Part shown: positions 1 to 15,658 of the stretch, in pieces
Layout of the letters: each line of letters opens with the position of its first letter
Numbering within the stretch: the stretch's first letter is position 1
Virus record (IMG/VR): IMGVR_UViG_2721755662_000003
DNA: 15,658 nucleotides
From: a virus
Taxonomy: Duplodnaviria; Heunggongvirae; Uroviricota; Caudoviricetes
Reading direction: 5' to 3' (one strand)
Made by a program: the position numbers and the translations under genes
The notes under the pieces: model-generated
The model's database searches: none
Seen by the model: the letters and a program-made list of their open reading frames with translations, nothing else
What the model was told of the DNA's origin: nothing

Positions 1-1218
1 ATGAACAAACTGAGCGATACCTTGCTAAGGAAACTTCATGGTAAGCCAGCGGAGAAAAACACGTTTTATAGTGATGGCGGAAACCTGAGCGTGAAATATT
101 TAACATCAGGGAAATTGACCTGGTATTTCACATACAGGGCCGGAACGGGAAGGGAGACACGACCCGAACGCATTAAGCTGGGAAGTTATCCTGATCTGAG
201 CCTGAAAGCAGCCAGGGAAAAAGCCGCACAGTGTCGCACATGGCTGGCTGAGGGGAAAAATCCACGTCATGAGATGAATTACACCGTACAGGAAGCGTTA
301 AAGCCCGTAACGGTTGGCGATGCGCTCACCTACTGGCTTGAGTATTACGTAAAGGAAAACCGCGTGGATTATATCGCCCTGAAAAGGCGACTTAATAATC
401 ACGTAATACAGCAGATTGGTGCTATGCCGCTGGATAAATGCGAGCTACGGCACTGGCTGGCCTGTTTTGACCAGGTGGCAAAGCGAACGCCTGTTACTGC
501 CGGATTCGTGCTACAGGCGTGCAAACAGGCGCTTAAGTTCTGCCGTAGGCGGCGCTATGCAATCAGCAACGTTCTGGACGATCTGAACGTTGCGGACGTT
601 GGGAAAAAACCGGATATAAGCGAACGTGTCTTAAGTAACAAAGAACTTGGCGAATTATTGCAGGCACTGGACAAAAAAATATTCTCCCCTTACTACGTCG
701 CGTTAATCCGCCTCCTGATTGTCTTCGGAGCCAGAACGGTAGAACTGAGGTTATCGGAGATCGGGGAGTGGGATTTTACGGAAATGCTATGGACCGTTCC
801 GAAGGAGCACAGCAAAACGAAGGTCGCAATATTCCGGCCCATACCGGAAGCGATCCTGCCGTTCGTCACGCAGCTGGTGGAGCAGAACAGGCACACGGGC
901 TTATTGCTGGGGGAAGTGAAACAGGAGGCCAGCGTATCGCAGTATGGAAGATTAGCGCACAGGAGGCTTAATCACCCTCACTGGTCACTGCATGACATCC
1001 GGCGCACCTTTACAACCATGCTGAACGATTTAGGCGTTGATCCGCATGTCGTGGAGCAGCTTACAGGCCACCAGATGCCAGGAATGCAGCGAGTTTATAA
1101 TCATTCCCGTTATCTGGATGCGAAACGCAATGCGCTGGATATGTGGACGGAGCGGTTAGGGATACTGGCGGGAACACATGAAAACGTAACCACGCTACCC
1201 GTAGCCAGAAGAAAATAA
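1..1218 (+). CDS. int: Tyrosine recombinase, P4-family integrase (405 aa)
   Basis: N-terminal arm-binding-like region (LSDTLLRKL..GKP..YSDGGNLSVKY..WYFTYR..IKLGSYPDLSLKAAREKA) and C-terminal catalytic region with HDIRRTF...GHQ...RVYNHSRY (His/Arg/Tyr pattern of tyrosine recombinases); ORF starts at window position 1. Confidence 0.9.
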   Translation: MNKLSDTLLRKLHGKPAEKNTFYSDGGNLSVKYLTSGKLTWYFTYRAGTGRETRPERIKLGSYPDLSLKAAREKAAQCRTWLAEGKNPRHEMNYTVQEALKPVTVGDALTYWLEYYVKENRVDYIALKRRLNNHVIQQIGAMPLDKCELRHWLACFDQVAKRTPVTAGFVLQACKQALKFCRRRRYAISNVLDDLNVADVGKKPDISERVLSNKELGELLQALDKKIFSPYYVALIRLLIVFGARTVELRLSEIGEWDFTEMLWTVPKEHSKTKVAIFRPIPEAILPFVTQLVEQNRHTGLLLGEVKQEASVSQYGRLAHRRLNHPHWSLHDIRRTFTTMLNDLGVDPHVVEQLTGHQMPGMQRVYNHSRYLDAKRNALDMWTERLGILAGTHENVTTLPVARRK

Positions 1219-7587: not shown

Positions 7588-7599
7588 GGGGTGGGGACG

Positions 7600-7872
7600 A
7601 TGGTACATGACCGCATAGCGGAAGAACTGGAGGCGAAAGGCTTTTACCGGAGAGCGTCGGCGCGATGGGGTGAAGTCATGCAACTGGTGGAGACAGACAA
7701 GGAACGGCATCACATCACGATGCGACGGCTGGAATGTTCCAGGAAGGCACAGAGGCCACCGGAGCCGCCGGATAACTACGGAGACCTGAAAAAGGCGGTC
7801 GATCGCACTTATGCCGAAATGGGTATGGATGGTGCTGGTAATGAAATATGGCGAAATTACCAGGACAGATAA
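7600..7872 (+). CDS. Probable PerC-family transcriptional activator (about 90 aa from ATG 7600)
   Basis: N-terminal MVHDRIAEELEAKGFYRRASARWGEVM matches my recollection of the PerC/Pch motif; SD gaggggtgggga upstream. Confidence 0.5.
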   Translation: MVHDRIAEELEAKGFYRRASARWGEVMQLVETDKERHHITMRRLECSRKAQRPPEPPDNYGDLKKAVDRTYAEMGMDGAGNEIWRNYQDR

Positions 7873-11477: not shown

Positions 11478-11770
11478 CAGAAGAACTTATCACCCTGGAA
11501 GAAGTGAAACTCCATTGCCGCATCGATGGCGACGATGAAGACCAGTTAATCAGCGGATACATTGCCGCATCGCTTGAGGCGTGCCAGATACACATAGGCA
11601 GGCGCTTTGATGACGGGCTGGAGTTCACGCCAGCCATAAAGATTGGCTGCATGATGTTTATCGCTCACCTGTATGAAAATCGCCAGATTGTCGCGGATAA
11701 CGCAAAAACACGCGTACCCATGACGATAGGCGCACTCTGGACGGCTTACCGTGATGTGGGGGTGTACTGA
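11474..11770 (+). CDS. Head-tail connector protein, gp6-like (98 aa)
   Basis: LITLEEVKLHCRIDGDDEDQLISGYIAAS...YENRQ matches gp6-like connector N-terminal pattern. Confidence 0.7.
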   Translation: MTEELITLEEVKLHCRIDGDDEDQLISGYIAASLEACQIHIGRRFDDGLEFTPAIKIGCMMFIAHLYENRQIVADNAKTRVPMTIGALWTAYRDVGVY

Positions 11771-12210
11771 TGCCGTGGCAACCATTAAGACGATGCACAG
11801 AACCAGGCTGTAACAGGCGCGTTAAATCCGGCAAGTGTGAGGAGCACAGGCGGGCGGCATGGCGTGCAGAGGATGCCAGACGAGGACACCGCCGCGCGCG
11901 TGGATATTCCAGACAGTGGGACAAATACCGCGCCATGTATCTGAGTAAAAACCCGTTATGCGTGCGATGCCTTGAGAAGGGGATATATACGCCCGCCGTG
12001 GTGGTGGATCACATTATCCCGATTAATGGCGGTGATGATGTTCTCTTCTGGCCCGAATGGAACCATCAACCATTGTGCCAGGCGTGTCATAACCAGAAAA
12101 CGAAATGGCTTGATCCGGCAACAAAAAGCAAGCGTGCCGCAGGTGGATTTCGTGAAGAGGAAGAACGGGCCGCTAACCGCAATAACTGGATGTATGACGC
12201 TGATGAATGA
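11770..12210 (+). CDS. HNH endonuclease associated with terminase (146 aa)
   Basis: Cys pairs CxxC...C...C with VDHIIPI and NHQPLCQACHNQKT (HNH motif); sits immediately upstream of TerS as in cos-type HK97-like packaging modules. Confidence 0.85.
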   Translation: MPWQPLRRCTEPGCNRRVKSGKCEEHRRAAWRAEDARRGHRRARGYSRQWDKYRAMYLSKNPLCVRCLEKGIYTPAVVVDHIIPINGGDDVLFWPEWNHQPLCQACHNQKTKWLDPATKSKRAAGGFREEEERAANRNNWMYDADE

Positions 12211-12376
12211 GCGGGAACAAAACCGCCTTATCCGTGGACTTATAAGGCAGCGTGACGCATGGAAGACACAGGAAACAGGGCATAAAGATAAAGCGTCAGG
12301 ACGCGCAGAACGCATCACAGCGAAGCGATTAACCGACCGTGACCGCGAGGTTATGGAATGTTTCCGCAATCGCTGA
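12203..12376 (+). CDS. Possible small highly charged protein (57 aa) between HNH and TerS; low confidence
   Basis: 3' part of track ORF 11972-12376 lying outside HNH; MNEREQNRLIRGLIRQRDAWK...; no clear SD. Confidence 0.25.
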   Translation: MNEREQNRLIRGLIRQRDAWKTQETGHKDKASGRAERITAKRLTDRDREVMECFRNR

Positions 12377-12379
12377 TGA

Positions 12380-12440
12380 GGCTGTATGACGGGGTGGGGG
12401 GCGTTTTCAGGACAAACCCGACCCCGCCGGGCACCGAACG
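12380..12440. other. Candidate cos/packaging site: G-run and C-run rich segment between HNH and terS
   Basis: acggggtggggggcg ... cccgaccccgccgggc; position matches where cos lies in HK97-type phages that use HNH+TerS+TerL. Confidence 0.3.
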
Positions 12441-12498
12441 CCTCCTCAAATTTTTATGCACGGGAATTTTTTGAAAAATAATCTGACGAAAAATAAGC

Positions 12499-12855
12499 AT
12501 GGCAAGACCACCGAAAGCCCCCGCCTACCTGGATGACATCGCCGTGAAGCAGTGGCGGGAAAAATCGCGGCAGCTTGCGGAACGGGGAGACCTGACCCCC
12601 GCCGACTGGAGCAATCTGGAACTGTATTGTGTCAACTACTCCATTTACCGGAAAGCCGTCGCAGACCTTGCGGCGCGCGGGTTCAGCATTGTTAACAGTC
12701 AGGGCGGCGAGAGCAGAAACCCCGCATTAAGCGCGAAATCAGACGCTGAAAGGGTGATGATAAAAATGGCCTCCTTGCTCGGTTTTGACCCGATAAGCCG
12801 CCGTAAAAACCCACCGGAAACAGAAGAAGAGGACGAGCTTGACCGCCTGGAATAA
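12499..12855 (+). CDS. terS: Terminase small subunit, P27-like family (118 aa)
   Basis: WSNLELYCVNYSIYRKA...NPALS...GFDPISR pattern of P27-family TerS; overlaps terL start. Confidence 0.8.
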   Translation: MARPPKAPAYLDDIAVKQWREKSRQLAERGDLTPADWSNLELYCVNYSIYRKAVADLAARGFSIVNSQGGESRNPALSAKSDAERVMIKMASLLGFDPISRRKNPPETEEEDELDRLE

Positions 12856-14500
12856 GTACGCAGAAGACGTAAAAACGGGCAAAATTCCGGCCTGTAAACG
12901 GCTGAAACAGGCCGTTAAACGGTACTTTTCGGACCTTAAAAGCCCCCTTTACACGTTCGATCGTGAGGTTGTGGAGCGGTTTATTGCCTTTTCCAGGGTG
13001 TGCCCGCACGTAAAAGGACCGATGCGTGGCAGACCCATTGAGCTGGAGCCGTGGCAGCAGTTCGCCTTTGCGTGCATCCTCGGCTTTAAGGTTAAGGCCA
13101 CCGGACGGCGCAAATACACGAGCGCCTTTATCGAAGTGCCGCGCAAAAATGCGAAATCCACGACCGCCGCGATTCTGGCTAACTGGTTTCTGATTATGGA
13201 GAACGGTCAGCAGGATATCTACACCGCAGCGGTGAGCCGTGACCAGGCGCGGATCGTCTTTGATGATGCGCGTCAGATGTGCCTTTTATCCCGACCGTTA
13301 CGCAGGCGGGTGAATATTCAGGCGCATAAGGTGATACACCCGAAAAGCAACAGCCTGTTAAAGCCGCTGGCAGCAAAAGCGGCAACCATCGAGGGAACAA
13401 ACCCCAGCCTTTCCATCGTGGACGAATACCACTTGCACCCCGATAACGGCGTTTATTCCGCGCTTGAGCTGGGGATGGGCGCACGTCCCGAAGGGCTGTT
13501 ATTTGCCATTACCACATCAGGCAGCAACGTCGTTTCAGCCTGTAAGCAGCACTATGATTATTGCTGCCAGATCCTGGACGGCGAAGAGGTTAACGATTCA
13601 ATTTTTGTACTGATTTACGAACTGGACGACGAAAACGAGGTTGATGATCCGGCGATGTGGATAAAGGCGAACCCTAATATTGATGTTTCCGTCGATCGTG
13701 AAAAACTGGCCTCAACCATCCAGAAAGCGCGGGGTATTCCGTCGCAGTGGGTGGAGATGATGACAAAGCGATTTAATATCTGGTGCCAGGGGGCTACCCC
13801 GTGGATGGGTAACGGCGCATGGGCTGAGTGTGCCGGAACGTTCACGGAGGAAGATTTACACGGCCAGGAGTGTTACGCGGGGCTGGACTTATCATCAACC
13901 AGCGATATTTCCAGCGTGTGCTATGCCTTTCCGGTCGGTAAAACCATTATGCTGGTTTCCCGTCACTATCTGCCGGAATTTCAGCTACAGAACCCCGCCA
14001 ATAAAAACCGCGCCATCTATCGTCAGTGGGCTAAAGCAGGCTGGATACGCACAACGCCTGGCGACTGCATTGATTACGACCGGATCAGAGATGACATCAT
14101 GCAGGACGCGGAGAAATTTAATATCAGGCTGGTGGGCTTTGATACGTGGAACGCCACGCATCTCAGAACGCAATTACAGGGGGCAGGTTTTGAGGTGGAG
14201 CCGTTCCCGCAAACCTACCTCAGATTCAGTCCGGCGGCGAAATCGTTCGAAGTTTTTGTTAACCGCAGGGTGATTGTGCATCGTGGCGATCCGGTGTTGT
14301 CCTGGTCGATGAGTAACGTCGTGATGCAGAGTGACGCGAACGCCAATATCAAGCCGAACAAGAAAAAATCACCGAACAAGATAGACCCGAGCGTGGCGGC
14401 GCTGATGGCGTTTGGTACATTCCAGGCAGAGCATGAGGATTTTGCTTTTGATATAAGCGACAGCCACCGCCAGAAACTGGAAGAATTTAGCGGGGTGTAA
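12839..14500 (+). CDS. terL: Terminase large subunit (553 aa)
   Basis: N-terminal ATPase region then nuclease region, typical TerL layout; overlaps TerS; size typical. Confidence 0.9.
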   Translation: MTAWNKYAEDVKTGKIPACKRLKQAVKRYFSDLKSPLYTFDREVVERFIAFSRVCPHVKGPMRGRPIELEPWQQFAFACILGFKVKATGRRKYTSAFIEVPRKNAKSTTAAILANWFLIMENGQQDIYTAAVSRDQARIVFDDARQMCLLSRPLRRRVNIQAHKVIHPKSNSLLKPLAAKAATIEGTNPSLSIVDEYHLHPDNGVYSALELGMGARPEGLLFAITTSGSNVVSACKQHYDYCCQILDGEEVNDSIFVLIYELDDENEVDDPAMWIKANPNIDVSVDREKLASTIQKARGIPSQWVEMMTKRFNIWCQGATPWMGNGAWAECAGTFTEEDLHGQECYAGLDLSSTSDISSVCYAFPVGKTIMLVSRHYLPEFQLQNPANKNRAIYRQWAKAGWIRTTPGDCIDYDRIRDDIMQDAEKFNIRLVGFDTWNATHLRTQLQGAGFEVEPFPQTYLRFSPAAKSFEVFVNRRVIVHRGDPVLSWSMSNVVMQSDANANIKPNKKKSPNKIDPSVAALMAFGTFQAEHEDFAFDISDSHRQKLEEFSGV

Positions 14501-14513
14501 TGAGGTCAGCAGC

Positions 14514-14795
14514 ATGACAGAAGCCGAAATAACGGGATTAATCCGCCGCGTTGCCGGAATCAGCCAGCAGGCTGACGAACAGGCCACGCAGCCGGACAGC
14601 GTGACAGCCGAAAACTATGCGCGTGTTGTTGCTGAGGTGATGCGCCGTGATGGTATAGAACTTAATGGCGTGGATATGCGCAACATACGAACCAGAGTTC
14701 TTGAGTTGCTGGCCTACCGTCGCCGCGTGGAGATGTATCGGGAGAAGGAGAAAATAACGTACCACTGGAAGAAGCCGGAGCGGTTGCGGCGGTAA
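14514..14795 (+). CDS. Hypothetical protein (93 aa) after terL
   Basis: ORF track; Arg-rich C-terminus; no recognised family. Confidence 0.45.
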   Translation: MTEAEITGLIRRVAGISQQADEQATQPDSVTAENYARVVAEVMRRDGIELNGVDMRNIRTRVLELLAYRRRVEMYREKEKITYHWKKPERLRR

Positions 14796-15493: not shown

Positions 15494-15658
15494 TCAATGT
15501 GTTATGCGAAATAAGTTATATATAACAGCAATAAATAATGCGAGAATAAACGGCACGATGATCTCGGCGGCAAAACGGATACCGCAGAGAATAATGACCA
15601 GCATTCCCAACATAATGACGATTTTTAGGCCATTGAGCGTGATGATCGGCTTTGCCAT
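15494..15658 (-). pseudogene. tqsA: Truncated 5' fragment of a tqsA (ydgG)-like AI-2 exporter gene: 46 host-like codons then 8 island-derived codons and stop
   Basis: Minus-strand translation [46 protein letters not shown] then YNLFRITH-stop; the first 46 residues match my recollection of the E. coli TqsA N-terminus. Confidence 0.55.

What the first reader, a model, noticed from the sequence alone, without database searches (positions are those of the whole stretch)
12203..12498. Candidate cos site and a possible tiny charged ORF between HNH and TerS
The 290-bp spacer contains adjacent G-rich (acggggtggggggcg) and C-rich (cccgaccccgccgggc) blocks at 12386-12433, located where cos-type HK97-like phages have their cohesive-end site and where HNH-assisted cleavage occurs. 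An island-specific cos would explain selective packaging of island DNA. A 57-aa highly basic ORF (12203-12376) may be coding but lacks a clear RBS.
Basis: inference. Interest (0 to 1): 0.45.

Follow-up and report, generated by a model that had tools for sequence, protein, structure and literature searches.

The report
Phage satellite's own DNA-packaging (cos) site
The gap between the HNH and small-terminase genes of this E. coli phage-satellite island (a known capsid-forming PICI) almost certainly holds the island's own cos packaging site, plus a real but uncharacterised 57-residue gene. This is what the element family predicts, so it is useful detail and not a surprise.

Summary
The window is 100% identical to an E. 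coli chromosomal island inserted in tqsA. It is a capsid-forming PICI of the EcCIEDL933 type (int, primase, capsid, protease, portal, connectors, HNH, TerS, TerL).

- **Small ORF (12203-12376).** It is a real gene. It matches phrog_3173, has about 159 sequence clusters across Enterobacterales, shows dN/dS 0.26-0.45 only in its own frame, and its start overlaps the HNH stop by 8 nt. Its function is unknown.
- **Conserved non-coding blocks.** Two blocks are conserved from Escherichia to Pasteurella: a G-run block (12391-12417), and 53-54 bp downstream of it 'ACCG..CCTCCTCAAATTTTTAyGCACGG..TTTTTTGAAAATAA' (12432-12481).
It lies in the variable stretch between them, and the G/C hairpin is not conserved.
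- **Virion-derived evidence.** Two independent virion-derived assemblies of a Klebsiella relative break in this spacer. This brackets the physical ends to window 12414-12485, so the G-rich block lies inside the packaged right end.
- **Predicted cut.** The HK97 cos layout and the gap midpoint both put the cut near 12450|12451, with the TerS site just downstream.

cos packaging by cf-PICIs is already published. The nucleotide-level site and the small gene's role are not. Interest is modest.

The parts
11770..12210 (+). HNH endonuclease gene of the packaging module
   Evidence: Pfam HNH PF01844, E = 1.8e-8. phrog_144 HNH, E = 8e-45. PGAP annotation.
12203..12376 (+). Small basic protein gene: 57 aa, pI 10.7, two predicted helices. 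PGAP uses the upstream ATG at 12194 (WP_000174068.1, 60 aa). Function unknown.
   Evidence: phrog_3173, E = 7.5e-37, with the profile starting at the 12203 Met. About 159 clusters in Enterobacterales, all annotated hypothetical. dN/dS is 0.26-0.45 in this frame against about 1-2.6 in the other forward frames, P about 0.005. The ORF is intact in 56 of 60 unique variants. AF2 model pLDDT 77.
12391..12417 (.). Conserved G-run block GGGGTGGGGGGCGTTTTCAGGACAAAC. It is the left (last-packaged) part of the cos region and lies inside the packaged right end.
   Evidence: Conserved across genera. Retained at the 3' end of virion-derived LR881103. HK97 has a G9 run 43-51 nt before its cos cut.
12417..12432 (.). 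It sits in a variable linker and is not a conserved element.
   Evidence: 19-31% divergence between E. coli lineages. Replaced by unrelated sequence in Klebsiella, L003, Pasteurella and Aeromonas. The hairpin with the G-run is not conserved.
12432..12450 (.). Conserved C-run CACCGAACGCCTCCTCAAA. This is the predicted position of the staggered cos cut, with the top-strand nick about 12450|12451 (inferred).
   Evidence: Cross-genus consensus ACCGCCCCCTCCTCAAA lies at a fixed 53-54 bp from the G-run. It aligns with HK97 ...ACCGCCGCCAAA| at the mapped cut. It falls at the midpoint of the 12414-12485 gap in the virion assembly.
12451..12481 (.). Most conserved block, TTTTTATGCACGGGAATTTTTTGAAAAATAA. 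Predicted TerS recognition site (cosB-like) at the first-packaged end.
   Evidence: Near-invariant across 57 unique spacers from several bacterial orders. It occupies the same position as the HK97 TerS site at +15..+29, which also contains an A/T tract.
12499..12855 (+). Small terminase, P27 family
   Evidence: Pfam Terminase_4 PF05119, E = 1.3e-23. phrog_83.
12839..14500 (+). Large terminase, HK97 type
   Evidence: Pfam TerL_ATPase plus TerL_nuclease. The best solved relative is HK97 TerL 6z6d, E = 5.9e-42.

Best explanation
The window is a capsid-forming PICI of the EcCIEDL933 type, and the hnh-terS spacer is its private cos site, of the HK97 / HNH-assisted kind. Steps 1-6 below are inferred by analogy with HK97.

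1. After induction and replication, concatemeric island DNA is recognised by the island's P27-family TerS.
2. TerS binds the near-invariant box about 12456-12481 (GCACGG..TTTTTTGAAAATAA), just upstream of its own gene.
3. TerS recruits the HK97-type TerL, which together with the HNH protein makes staggered nicks in the conserved C-run around 12440-12450. The best guess for the top-strand nick is 12450|12451, 48 nt before the terS ATG.
4. By analogy with HK97, the nicks would leave a short 3' cohesive end.
5. Packaging runs rightwards from terS and ends at the next cos.
6. The G-run block (12391-12417) is therefore the last DNA to enter the capsid. It lies about five helical turns from the cut and is probably a terminase/HNH positioning or termination element.

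Because this site is absent from sequenced phages and the TerS family differs from that of HK97-like helper phages, only island DNA is cut and packaged.

The 57-aa ORF is a genuine gene, translationally coupled to hnh, encoding a basic two-helix protein. It is most likely an accessory packaging factor, not a core one, because relatives with the same cos layout lack it.
For: **Shown: identity of the element**
- The window is 100% identical to E. coli FORC_069 over its full length.
- The spacer is 99.3% identical to that of EDL933.
- The gene set matches the cf-PICI definition.

**Shown: published behaviour of this family**
- cf-PICIs package exclusively with their own HNH-TerS-TerL.
- KpCIDSM30104 DNA has cohesive cos ends.

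**Shown: two virion-derived assemblies break in this spacer**
- LR881103 (vB_KppS-Ant) is more than 99% identical to a region of the DSM 30104 genome, the strain that carries KpCIDSM30104. It was made with Nextera XT and SPAdes from particle DNA. It is linear and lacks exactly 69 bp of the chromosomal sequence between its two ends, corresponding to window 12414-12485.
- In PQ569648, a second virion-derived record, the cf-PICI segment starts at terS codon 1 and the record ends 2 nt before the small-ORF stop.

**Shown: conservation**
- In 57 unique spacers from Enterobacterales, Pasteurellaceae, Orbaceae and Aeromonas, the G-run and the C-run/T-box are conserved at a fixed 51-56 bp spacing, while the sequence between them varies.
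- Blocks 12391-12417 and 12434-12480 diverge 9-15%; the whole 122-nt spacer diverges 16-19%. Flanking genes differ at about 30-37% of synonymous sites (pS computed).

**Shown: the HK97 parallel**
- TerL is closest to HK97 TerL.
- HK97 has a G9 run 43-51 nt before its cut, then ...ACCGCCGCCAAA|GTTTGAATTT, a TerS site at +15..+29 with an A/T tract, and its terS ATG at +50.
- Alignment of the HK97 cos with this family gives z = 5.7 for Xenorhabdus and z = 2.8 for the window.

**Shown: the small ORF**
- It is absent from the Pasteurella element Pmp8 and from most Xenorhabdus elements, which have the same cos layout.

**Shown: no alternative signal**
- There is no + strand promoter or terminator in the spacer.
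Against: - No termini were mapped for this island. The two virion assemblies bracket the cut but do not pinpoint it, and both come from a Klebsiella relative whose spacer differs from the window.
- An assembly break could in principle arise from homopolymer-rich sequence, although hundreds of genome and metagenome assemblies read straight through the region.
- The HK97 alignment is weak for the window and not significant for Klebsiella (z = 1.5).
- The island TerS has no detectable sequence similarity to HK97 TerS or to any solved structure. Transferring the TerS binding position is therefore inference.
- Overhang polarity and length are unknown.
- Nothing tested here bears on the small protein's function. 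Four of 60 variants carry a premature stop or frameshift.
Confidence: 0.75

Rival explanations
1. One reading: the adjacent G-rich and C-rich blocks (12389-12432) are themselves the cohesive-end or cleavage site, for example as a symmetric cosN-like element or hairpin.
For: - The two blocks are partly complementary, with 10 of 12 positions pairing (read directly), and they fold together in the predicted minimum-energy structure.
- Several lineages keep some C-run about 20 nt after the G-run. In Serratia the G-run A and the C-block T change together.
- The C-rich block lies inside the 12414-12485 bracket.
Against: - The G-rich block is retained in full at the right end of the virion-derived contig, so the cut is to its right.
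- The C-rich block evolves at a near-neutral rate.
- It is replaced by unrelated sequence in Klebsiella, L003, Pluralibacter, Pasteurella and Aeromonas.
- The hairpin is no more stable than shuffles in 53 of 57 relatives (mean z = -0.43) or in the window itself (z = 0.18).
Confidence: 0.12
2. The conserved non-coding blocks are expression signals for terS-terL (a promoter, operator, leader or translation signal) and not the packaging site. The cos or pac site would then lie elsewhere.
For: - The conserved AT-rich block lies 18-48 nt upstream of the terS ATG.
- terS has no strong Shine-Dalgarno sequence in the window.
- The two roles are not mutually exclusive.
Against: - No sigma-70-like promoter or terminator is found on the + strand.
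- terS sits in the middle of a co-oriented operon.
- Two virion-derived assemblies end exactly here.
- The same layout surrounds the mapped HK97 cut.
Confidence: 0.08
3. The island is packaged by a headful (pac) mechanism, and the spacer only holds a pac recognition site without fixed ends.
For: None found here, apart from the fact that a TerS recognition site upstream of terS is also typical of pac phages (established knowledge).
Against: - TerL is HK97-type, with an adjacent HNH gene.
- Cohesive ends are reported for KpCIDSM30104.
- The virion assembly is linear, with a gap at one fixed place and no terminal redundancy.
Confidence: 0.03
4. The 57-codon ORF is not translated, and its conservation reflects DNA-level constraints of the cos flank.
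For: - There is no clear Shine-Dalgarno sequence.
- The last 20 nt (GAATGyTTCCGCAAyCGCTGA) are more conserved than the rest.
- A few copies carry stops or frameshifts.
- Relatives in Pasteurella and most Xenorhabdus lack the ORF.
Against: - Synonymous changes are in excess only in this frame and in its wobble-sharing antisense frame.
- Protein-level conservation persists down to 36% identity across genera, with indels in multiples of three.
- It matches a PHROG family end to end.
- The 8-nt overlap with the hnh stop is conserved.
Confidence: 0.05

Closest known systems
EcCIEDL933 and other capsid-forming PICIs (Alqurainy et al., bioRxiv 10.1101/2022.09.08.507074; He et al., bioRxiv 10.1101/2025.02.11.637232)
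   Same: - Same gene order: capsid, protease, portal, connectors, hnh, terS, terL.
- The spacer is 99.3% identical to EDL933.
- Exclusive self-packaging and cohesive ends are published for this family.
   Different: Nothing differs in kind. The papers held in the library do not give the cos site at nucleotide level. They do not name the small ORF unambiguously either: a 'hypothetical gene 1792' whose mutant transfers poorly may or may not be this ORF.
Bacteriophage HK97 cos site and HNH(gp74)-TerS-TerL packaging
   Same: - hnh lies upstream and terS downstream of cos.
- TerL is homologous (6z6d, E = 5.9e-42).
- A G-run lies about 45-60 nt before the cut.
- The C-rich motif ACCGCC...AAA sits at the cut.
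- An A/T tract lies about 20 nt after it.
- The cut is about 48-49 nt before the terS ATG.
   Different: - TerS belongs to a different family (P27/Terminase_4, 118 aa) with no detectable similarity to HK97 gp1.
- The actual recognition sequence differs.
- The island's ends and overhang have not been mapped.
Lambda cos (cosQ-cosN-cosB)
   Same: The layout is tripartite: an upstream element on the last-packaged side, the nicking site, and a downstream TerS-binding region next to the small-terminase gene.
   Different: Lambda has 12-nt 5' overhangs, no HNH partner and uses IHF. There is no sequence similarity. The comparison is functional only and rests on established knowledge.
cos-type SaPIs (e.g. 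SaPIbov5) and satellite P4, which carry a cos site
   Same: A satellite that carries a cos site for unit-length packaging.
   Different: Those satellites copy the helper's cos and use the helper's terminase. Here both the cos and the terminase are the satellite's own, and the cos is absent from sequenced phages.
PHROG family phrog_3173 (unknown function)
   Same: The small ORF matches the family end to end, with E = 7.5e-37. The Klebsiella homologue also matches, with E = 2e-27.
   Different: The family has no assigned function, no Pfam domain and no structural relative. Foldseek against the PDB found nothing.

Membership tests
Capsid-forming PICI (cf-PICI) | Encodes its own capsid, prohead protease, portal, head-completion protein and connector | tested here: met
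   Pfam Phage_capsid, Peptidase_S78, Phage_portal, Phage_HCP and Phage_connect_1
Capsid-forming PICI (cf-PICI) | Own packaging genes in the order hnh-terS-terL, after the head genes | tested here: met
   the order matches the description for Proteobacteria
Capsid-forming PICI (cf-PICI) | Integrase plus a replication/regulation module, size about 10-18 kb, no tail or lysis genes | tested here: met
   PGAP annotation of the identical FORC_069 locus shows int, an HTH regulator, primase, SSB and PerC. The island spans about 15.5 kb between the tqsA fragments, and nothing is annotated as a tail or lysis gene.
Capsid-forming PICI (cf-PICI) | Induced by a helper phage and transferred in small capsids joined to helper tails | not testable with these tools
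   Published for the near-identical EcCIEDL933
HK97-type, HNH-assisted cos packaging | HK97-like TerL (ATPase plus RNase H-like nuclease) | tested here: met
   PF03354 and PF20441; 6z6d, E = 5.9e-42
HK97-type, HNH-assisted cos packaging | HNH endonuclease gene adjacent to the terminase genes, with cos in between | tested here: met
   hnh at 11770-12210, terS at 12499. Virion-assembly ends fall between them.
HK97-type, HNH-assisted cos packaging | Defined, non-permuted genome ends at one site | tested here: inconclusive
   Two virion-derived assemblies of a Klebsiella relative end in the spacer, and cohesive ends are reported. No end mapping exists for this island, and no true contig end was found in 190 metagenome and IMG/VR stretches.
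HK97-type, HNH-assisted cos packaging | Short 3' cohesive overhang (10 nt in HK97) | not testable with these tools
   Requires end sequencing of particle DNA
HK97-type, HNH-assisted cos packaging | TerS homologous to HK97 gp1 | tested here: not met
   No PDB hit at E <= 1, although the PDB should include the HK97 TerS structures described. The island TerS belongs to the P27 family, PF05119. The system therefore works like HK97 but with a different recognition subunit.
phrog_3173 small protein family | Full-length match to the family profile | tested here: met
   E = 7.5e-37, profile positions 1-57 of 57

The most novel reading that the evidence does not exclude
The 57-aa basic protein (phrog_3173) is a previously unrecognised fourth component of an HNH-TerS-TerL packaging machine. 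In this reading it is a cos-proximal DNA-binding or terminase-binding factor that tunes or restricts cos recognition in enterobacterial cf-PICIs. It could, for example, act at the conserved G-run about five helical turns from the cut, and so contribute to the satellite-versus-helper packaging exclusivity.
Probability: 0.2. Interest if true: 0.55.

Novelty: new member of a known kind. Interest (0 to 1): 0.3.

Why it matters
cf-PICIs move between species at very high frequency by packaging only themselves and borrowing tails. A nucleotide-level cos (about 90 bp, 12391-12481) would have three uses:
- It would let people build minimal packageable cargo for cf-PICI-based DNA delivery.
- It would help predict which islands can cross-package each other.
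- It would improve annotation of the thousands of related elements. The motif CTCAAATTTTTAyGCACGG..TTTTTTTGAAAATAA recurs in at least 120 IMG/VR contigs.

The shared layout with HK97, despite an unrelated TerS, is a handy natural experiment on how small terminases read cos. The small conserved gene is a cheap knock-out target. None of this overturns current understanding.

Tried and rejected
1. **Contig ends as a proxy for physical termini.**
   - IMG/VR stretches L241 and L262 appeared to start 7-8 nt before the G-run.
   - Metagenome stretch L349 appeared to stop 4 nt before CAAA|TTTT.
   - list_loci showed that all three are internal storage-chunk boundaries, so they were rejected.
   - None of the 120 IMG/VR stretches or the 70 metagenome stretches has a true contig end in the spacer.
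2. **Island-sized Logan contigs.** Contigs of 16.7 and 15.8 kb that encode the small protein span cos and break near int/att, so they say nothing about cos.
3. **Hairpin, terminator or promoter readings of the G/C blocks.** There is no excess folding energy and no + strand consensus site.
4. **Structure-based function for the small protein.** The AF2 model shows two helices, Foldseek against the PDB gave no match, and Pfam gave nothing.
5. **Identity of 'hypothetical gene 1792'.** This gene has a packaging phenotype in the Alqurainy preprint. I tried to decide whether it is this ORF.
   - Only EDL933_1785 could be anchored, to CP-933C.
   - The question remains unresolved.
6. **Distant phages whose records start near terS.** Acinetobacter phage AbIPP1 was checked for real termini. 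The record had simply been reordered to start at terS.
7. **TerS against solved structures.** No hit.

Full report
**What the window is**

The 15,658-nt window is 100% identical over its whole length to E. coli FORC_069 chromosome 2444631-2460288. There it is an island inserted in tqsA. Its genes in order are:
- integrase;
- a small HTH regulator;
- Icd-like genes;
- primase;
- SSB;
- a PerC-family regulator;
- major capsid;
- S78 prohead protease;
- portal;
- head-completion protein;
- connector;
- HNH endonuclease;
- P27-family TerS;
- TerL.

No tail or lysis genes are annotated. The 401 nt around the finding occur in 489 of 5,426 complete E. coli genomes, always on the chromosome, and are 99.3% identical in strain EDL933.

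This is the organisation and the prototype strain of the capsid-forming PICIs (cf-PICIs) described by Alqurainy et al. Those elements make their own small capsids, package only themselves with their own HNH-TerS-TerL, and take only tails from a helper phage. [quoted passage not shown] A cos site near the terminase genes is therefore expected. I found no paper in the library that gives it at nucleotide level.

**Checking the observation**

- a 288-nt gap between the hnh stop (12210) and the terS ATG (12499);
- acggggtggggggcg at 12389-12403;
- cccgaccccgccgggc at 12417-12432;
- a 57-codon ORF at 12203-12376 encoding a basic protein (pI 10.7).

In a single sequence the G-run is not statistically remarkable, and the region does not fold better than shuffled sequence. 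Its significance comes from comparison with relatives.

**The small ORF is a gene**

- Its ATG lies in ATGAATGA, overlapping the hnh stop by 8 nt. The same arrangement is kept in Klebsiella and in a wastewater-derived relative.
- PGAP annotates it as WP_000174068.1, starting 9 nt earlier.
- It matches PHROG family phrog_3173 end to end (E = 7.5e-37). The profile begins at the 12203 Met. The 50-aa Klebsiella homologue matches the same family.
- A profile search found 159 clusters in Citrobacter, Klebsiella, Enterobacter, Serratia, Pectobacterium, Erwinia, Pantoea, Providencia, Proteus, Yersinia, Cronobacter, Salmonella and Xenorhabdus. All are annotated 'hypothetical' and none has a Pfam domain.
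- Proteins down to 36% identity keep an N-terminal TEQE..L..GL.R.R(D/E).F helix and a C-terminal RDRE(L/V).EC/AFRNR end. The indels between them are in whole codons.
- Between E. coli island lineages, dN/dS is 0.26-0.45 in this frame and about 1-2.6 in the other two forward frames. The excess of synonymous changes has P about 0.005. The neighbouring genes have dN/dS of 0.04-0.13.
- The ORF is intact in 56 of 60 unique variants.
- AlphaFold predicts two helices at pLDDT 77. Foldseek against the PDB found nothing.
- Pasteurella phage Pmp8 (a cf-PICI-like element) and most Xenorhabdus relatives lack the ORF but keep the same non-coding layout. It is therefore an accessory, not part of the core mechanism.

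The preprint reports a 'hypothetical gene 1792' in the packaging module whose mutant transfers very poorly. I could not establish whether that is this ORF or the 93-aa ORF after terL.

**The non-coding part**

I aligned 60 unique E. coli variants. I then compared 57 unique spacers upstream of related terS genes from Enterobacterales, Pasteurellaceae, Orbaceae and Aeromonas. Two blocks stand out:
- GGGGTGGGGG followed by (G)TTTTCAGGAC or ATCAAAAATGAC (window 12391-12417);
- ACCGCCCCCTCCTCAAATTTTTAyGCACGGyrATTTTTTTGAAAATAA (window 12432-12481), starting a nearly fixed 53-54 bp after the G-run begins.

The range of that spacing is 51-56 bp, about five helical turns.

Between E. coli lineages these two blocks diverge 9-15%. 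Flanking genes differ at about 30-37% of synonymous sites (pS computed). The nucleotides just after the ORF stop and just before the terS ATG diverge about 29-33%.

It diverges 19-31% and is replaced by unrelated sequence in Klebsiella, Pluralibacter, Pasteurella and Aeromonas. The G-run/C-block hairpin is no more stable than shuffles in 53 of 57 relatives. No + strand promoter or terminator is predicted in the spacer.

**Where the ends are**

Two GenBank records derive from particle DNA of a Klebsiella relative.

*LR881103 (vB_KppS-Ant).*
- It was assembled with SPAdes from a Nextera XT library of a lysate grown on K. pneumoniae DSM 30104, and it is more than 99% identical to a region of that genome. 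DSM 30104 is the strain that carries KpCIDSM30104.
- The record is linear. It starts 22 nt before terS and ends at ...GGGGTGGGGGAGGTTTTCAGGAC.
- Against the chromosome of the same strain (ATCC 13883, L089), exactly 69 bp are missing between the two ends. This corresponds to window 12414-12485.
- Transposase libraries lose the last few tens of bases of linear molecules (my own knowledge). That loss would produce such a gap, centred on a physical end.

*PQ569648 (Klebsiella phage P12620-1).*
- This is a chimeric record of about 90 kb of phage sequence plus a cf-PICI.
- Its cf-PICI segment starts at terS codon 1, and the record ends 2 nt before the small-ORF stop.

Two independent breaks within about 130 nt of a 16.6-kb element are very unlikely by chance. 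The cut is therefore to the right of the G-run block and to the left of 12486. The G-rich block is packaged DNA at the right end and is not the cleavage site.

**Comparison with HK97**

The island TerL is most similar to HK97 TerL among solved structures. In HK97 the cos cut is mapped:
- The record ends ...GGGCAGGGGGGGGATCAAATC...TGACCGCCGCCAAA and begins GTTTGAATTTAACGCTAACCCGATTTTTTTAG....
- The overhang is 10 nt.
- TerS binds +15..+29, which includes the A/T tract.
- The terS ATG is at +50.

The cf-PICI family shows the same sequence of elements: a G-run, about 45-55 bp, ACCGCC...CAAA, T-rich sequence, (A)CGCACGG..ATTTTTTT, and then terS. Global alignment places the HK97 cut after CTCAAA, which is window 12450|12451, 48 nt before the terS ATG. 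That point is also the midpoint of the 12414-12485 gap.

The alignment is significant for a Xenorhabdus member (z = 5.7), marginal for the window (z = 2.8) and not significant for Klebsiella (z = 1.5). The island TerS shows no similarity to any solved small terminase. The exact cut position and the TerS site are therefore inferences.

**Specificity**

In the phage collection the spacer DNA matches only three records, all of which carry cf-PICI-type sequence:
- vB_KppS-Ant;
- P12620-1;
- a 1.6-kb wastewater clone.

Combined with a TerS family different from that of HK97, this fits the published finding that island and helper packaging are mutually exclusive.

**Mechanism, and what is shown versus inferred**

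*Shown:*
- the identity of the element;
- that the small ORF is coding;
- the two conserved non-coding blocks and their fixed spacing;
- the lack of conservation of the C-rich block and of the hairpin;
- that virion-derived assemblies of a relative break in this spacer;
- that TerL is HK97-type.

*Inferred:*
- TerS binds about 12456-12481.
- TerL plus HNH nick around 12440-12450 and leave a short 3' overhang.
- Packaging proceeds rightwards from terS.
- The G-run block acts in termination or positioning.
- The small protein is a packaging accessory.

**Verdict**

It is wrong in detail about which nucleotides matter. The system is a known kind (cf-PICI with HK97-style, HNH-assisted cos packaging) in a known element. 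What is new is limited to a bracketed position, a conserved-motif description of the cos site, and the recognition of a conserved but uncharacterised small gene next to it.

Noticed in passing
L002 (LR881103.1, whole record): vB_KppS-Ant was published as a filamentous ssDNA phage of a novel genus. Its genes are capsid, protease, portal, connectors, HNH, TerS, TerL, integrase and primase, so it is the cf-PICI KpCIDSM30104 later studied by He et al. Its 765-aa 'tape measure' annotation after terL is probably an accessory or defence gene.
   Followed up: partly
L085 / L289 (PQ569648.1, about 90,644 to 106,503): 'Klebsiella phage P12620-1, complete genome' (106.5 kb) is a chimera. An unrelated phage sequence is joined exactly at terS codon 1 to a full cf-PICI that runs to the end of the record.
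   Followed up: partly
L087 395-600 and 677-691 (HK97 NC_002167 right end): HK97 also has an unannotated ORF of about 67 codons whose ATG overlaps the HNH (gp74) stop as ATGA. It lies between hnh and cos and is acidic, with no similarity to the island's small protein. A G9 run lies 43-51 nt before the cos cut. I have seen neither discussed.
   Followed up: no
window 14514-14795: The 93-aa ORF immediately after terL matches phrog_1561 (unknown function, E = 3e-56). It lies in the region that He et al. call variable and likely to hold defence genes. It is the other candidate for the preprint's 'hypothetical gene 1792'.
   Followed up: no
L005, L053, L064, L083; P0034, P0108: Some island copies carry a frameshift or a CGA-to-TGA stop in the small ORF. 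Others have lost the stop codon (TGA to TGG or TGC) and read 30 codons on through the G-run to a TAA in the T-box. The cos-flanking DNA stays intact in these copies.
   Followed up: partly
L098-L166 (Xenorhabdus, Photorhabdus and Proteus genome contigs): Xenorhabdus genomes carry many copies of this terS/cos module, with 5-6 loci in X. kozodoii and X. innexi. Several draft contigs break inside it (L110, L151, L158, L160). L132 has the G-run expanded to (GGGGTA)x5.
   Followed up: no
window 7591-7872: A PerC-family regulator (pchE-like) lies between the replication genes and the capsid operon. A proteomics paper links CP-933C (this island in EDL933) to PchE and to an over-expressed 9-kDa protein, EDL933_1785.
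   Followed up: no
window 1-1218 and 15515-15658: The island interrupts tqsA (AI-2 transporter), leaving pseudogene fragments on both sides. Some E. coli genomes hold up to 5 places that match the spacer.
   Followed up: no
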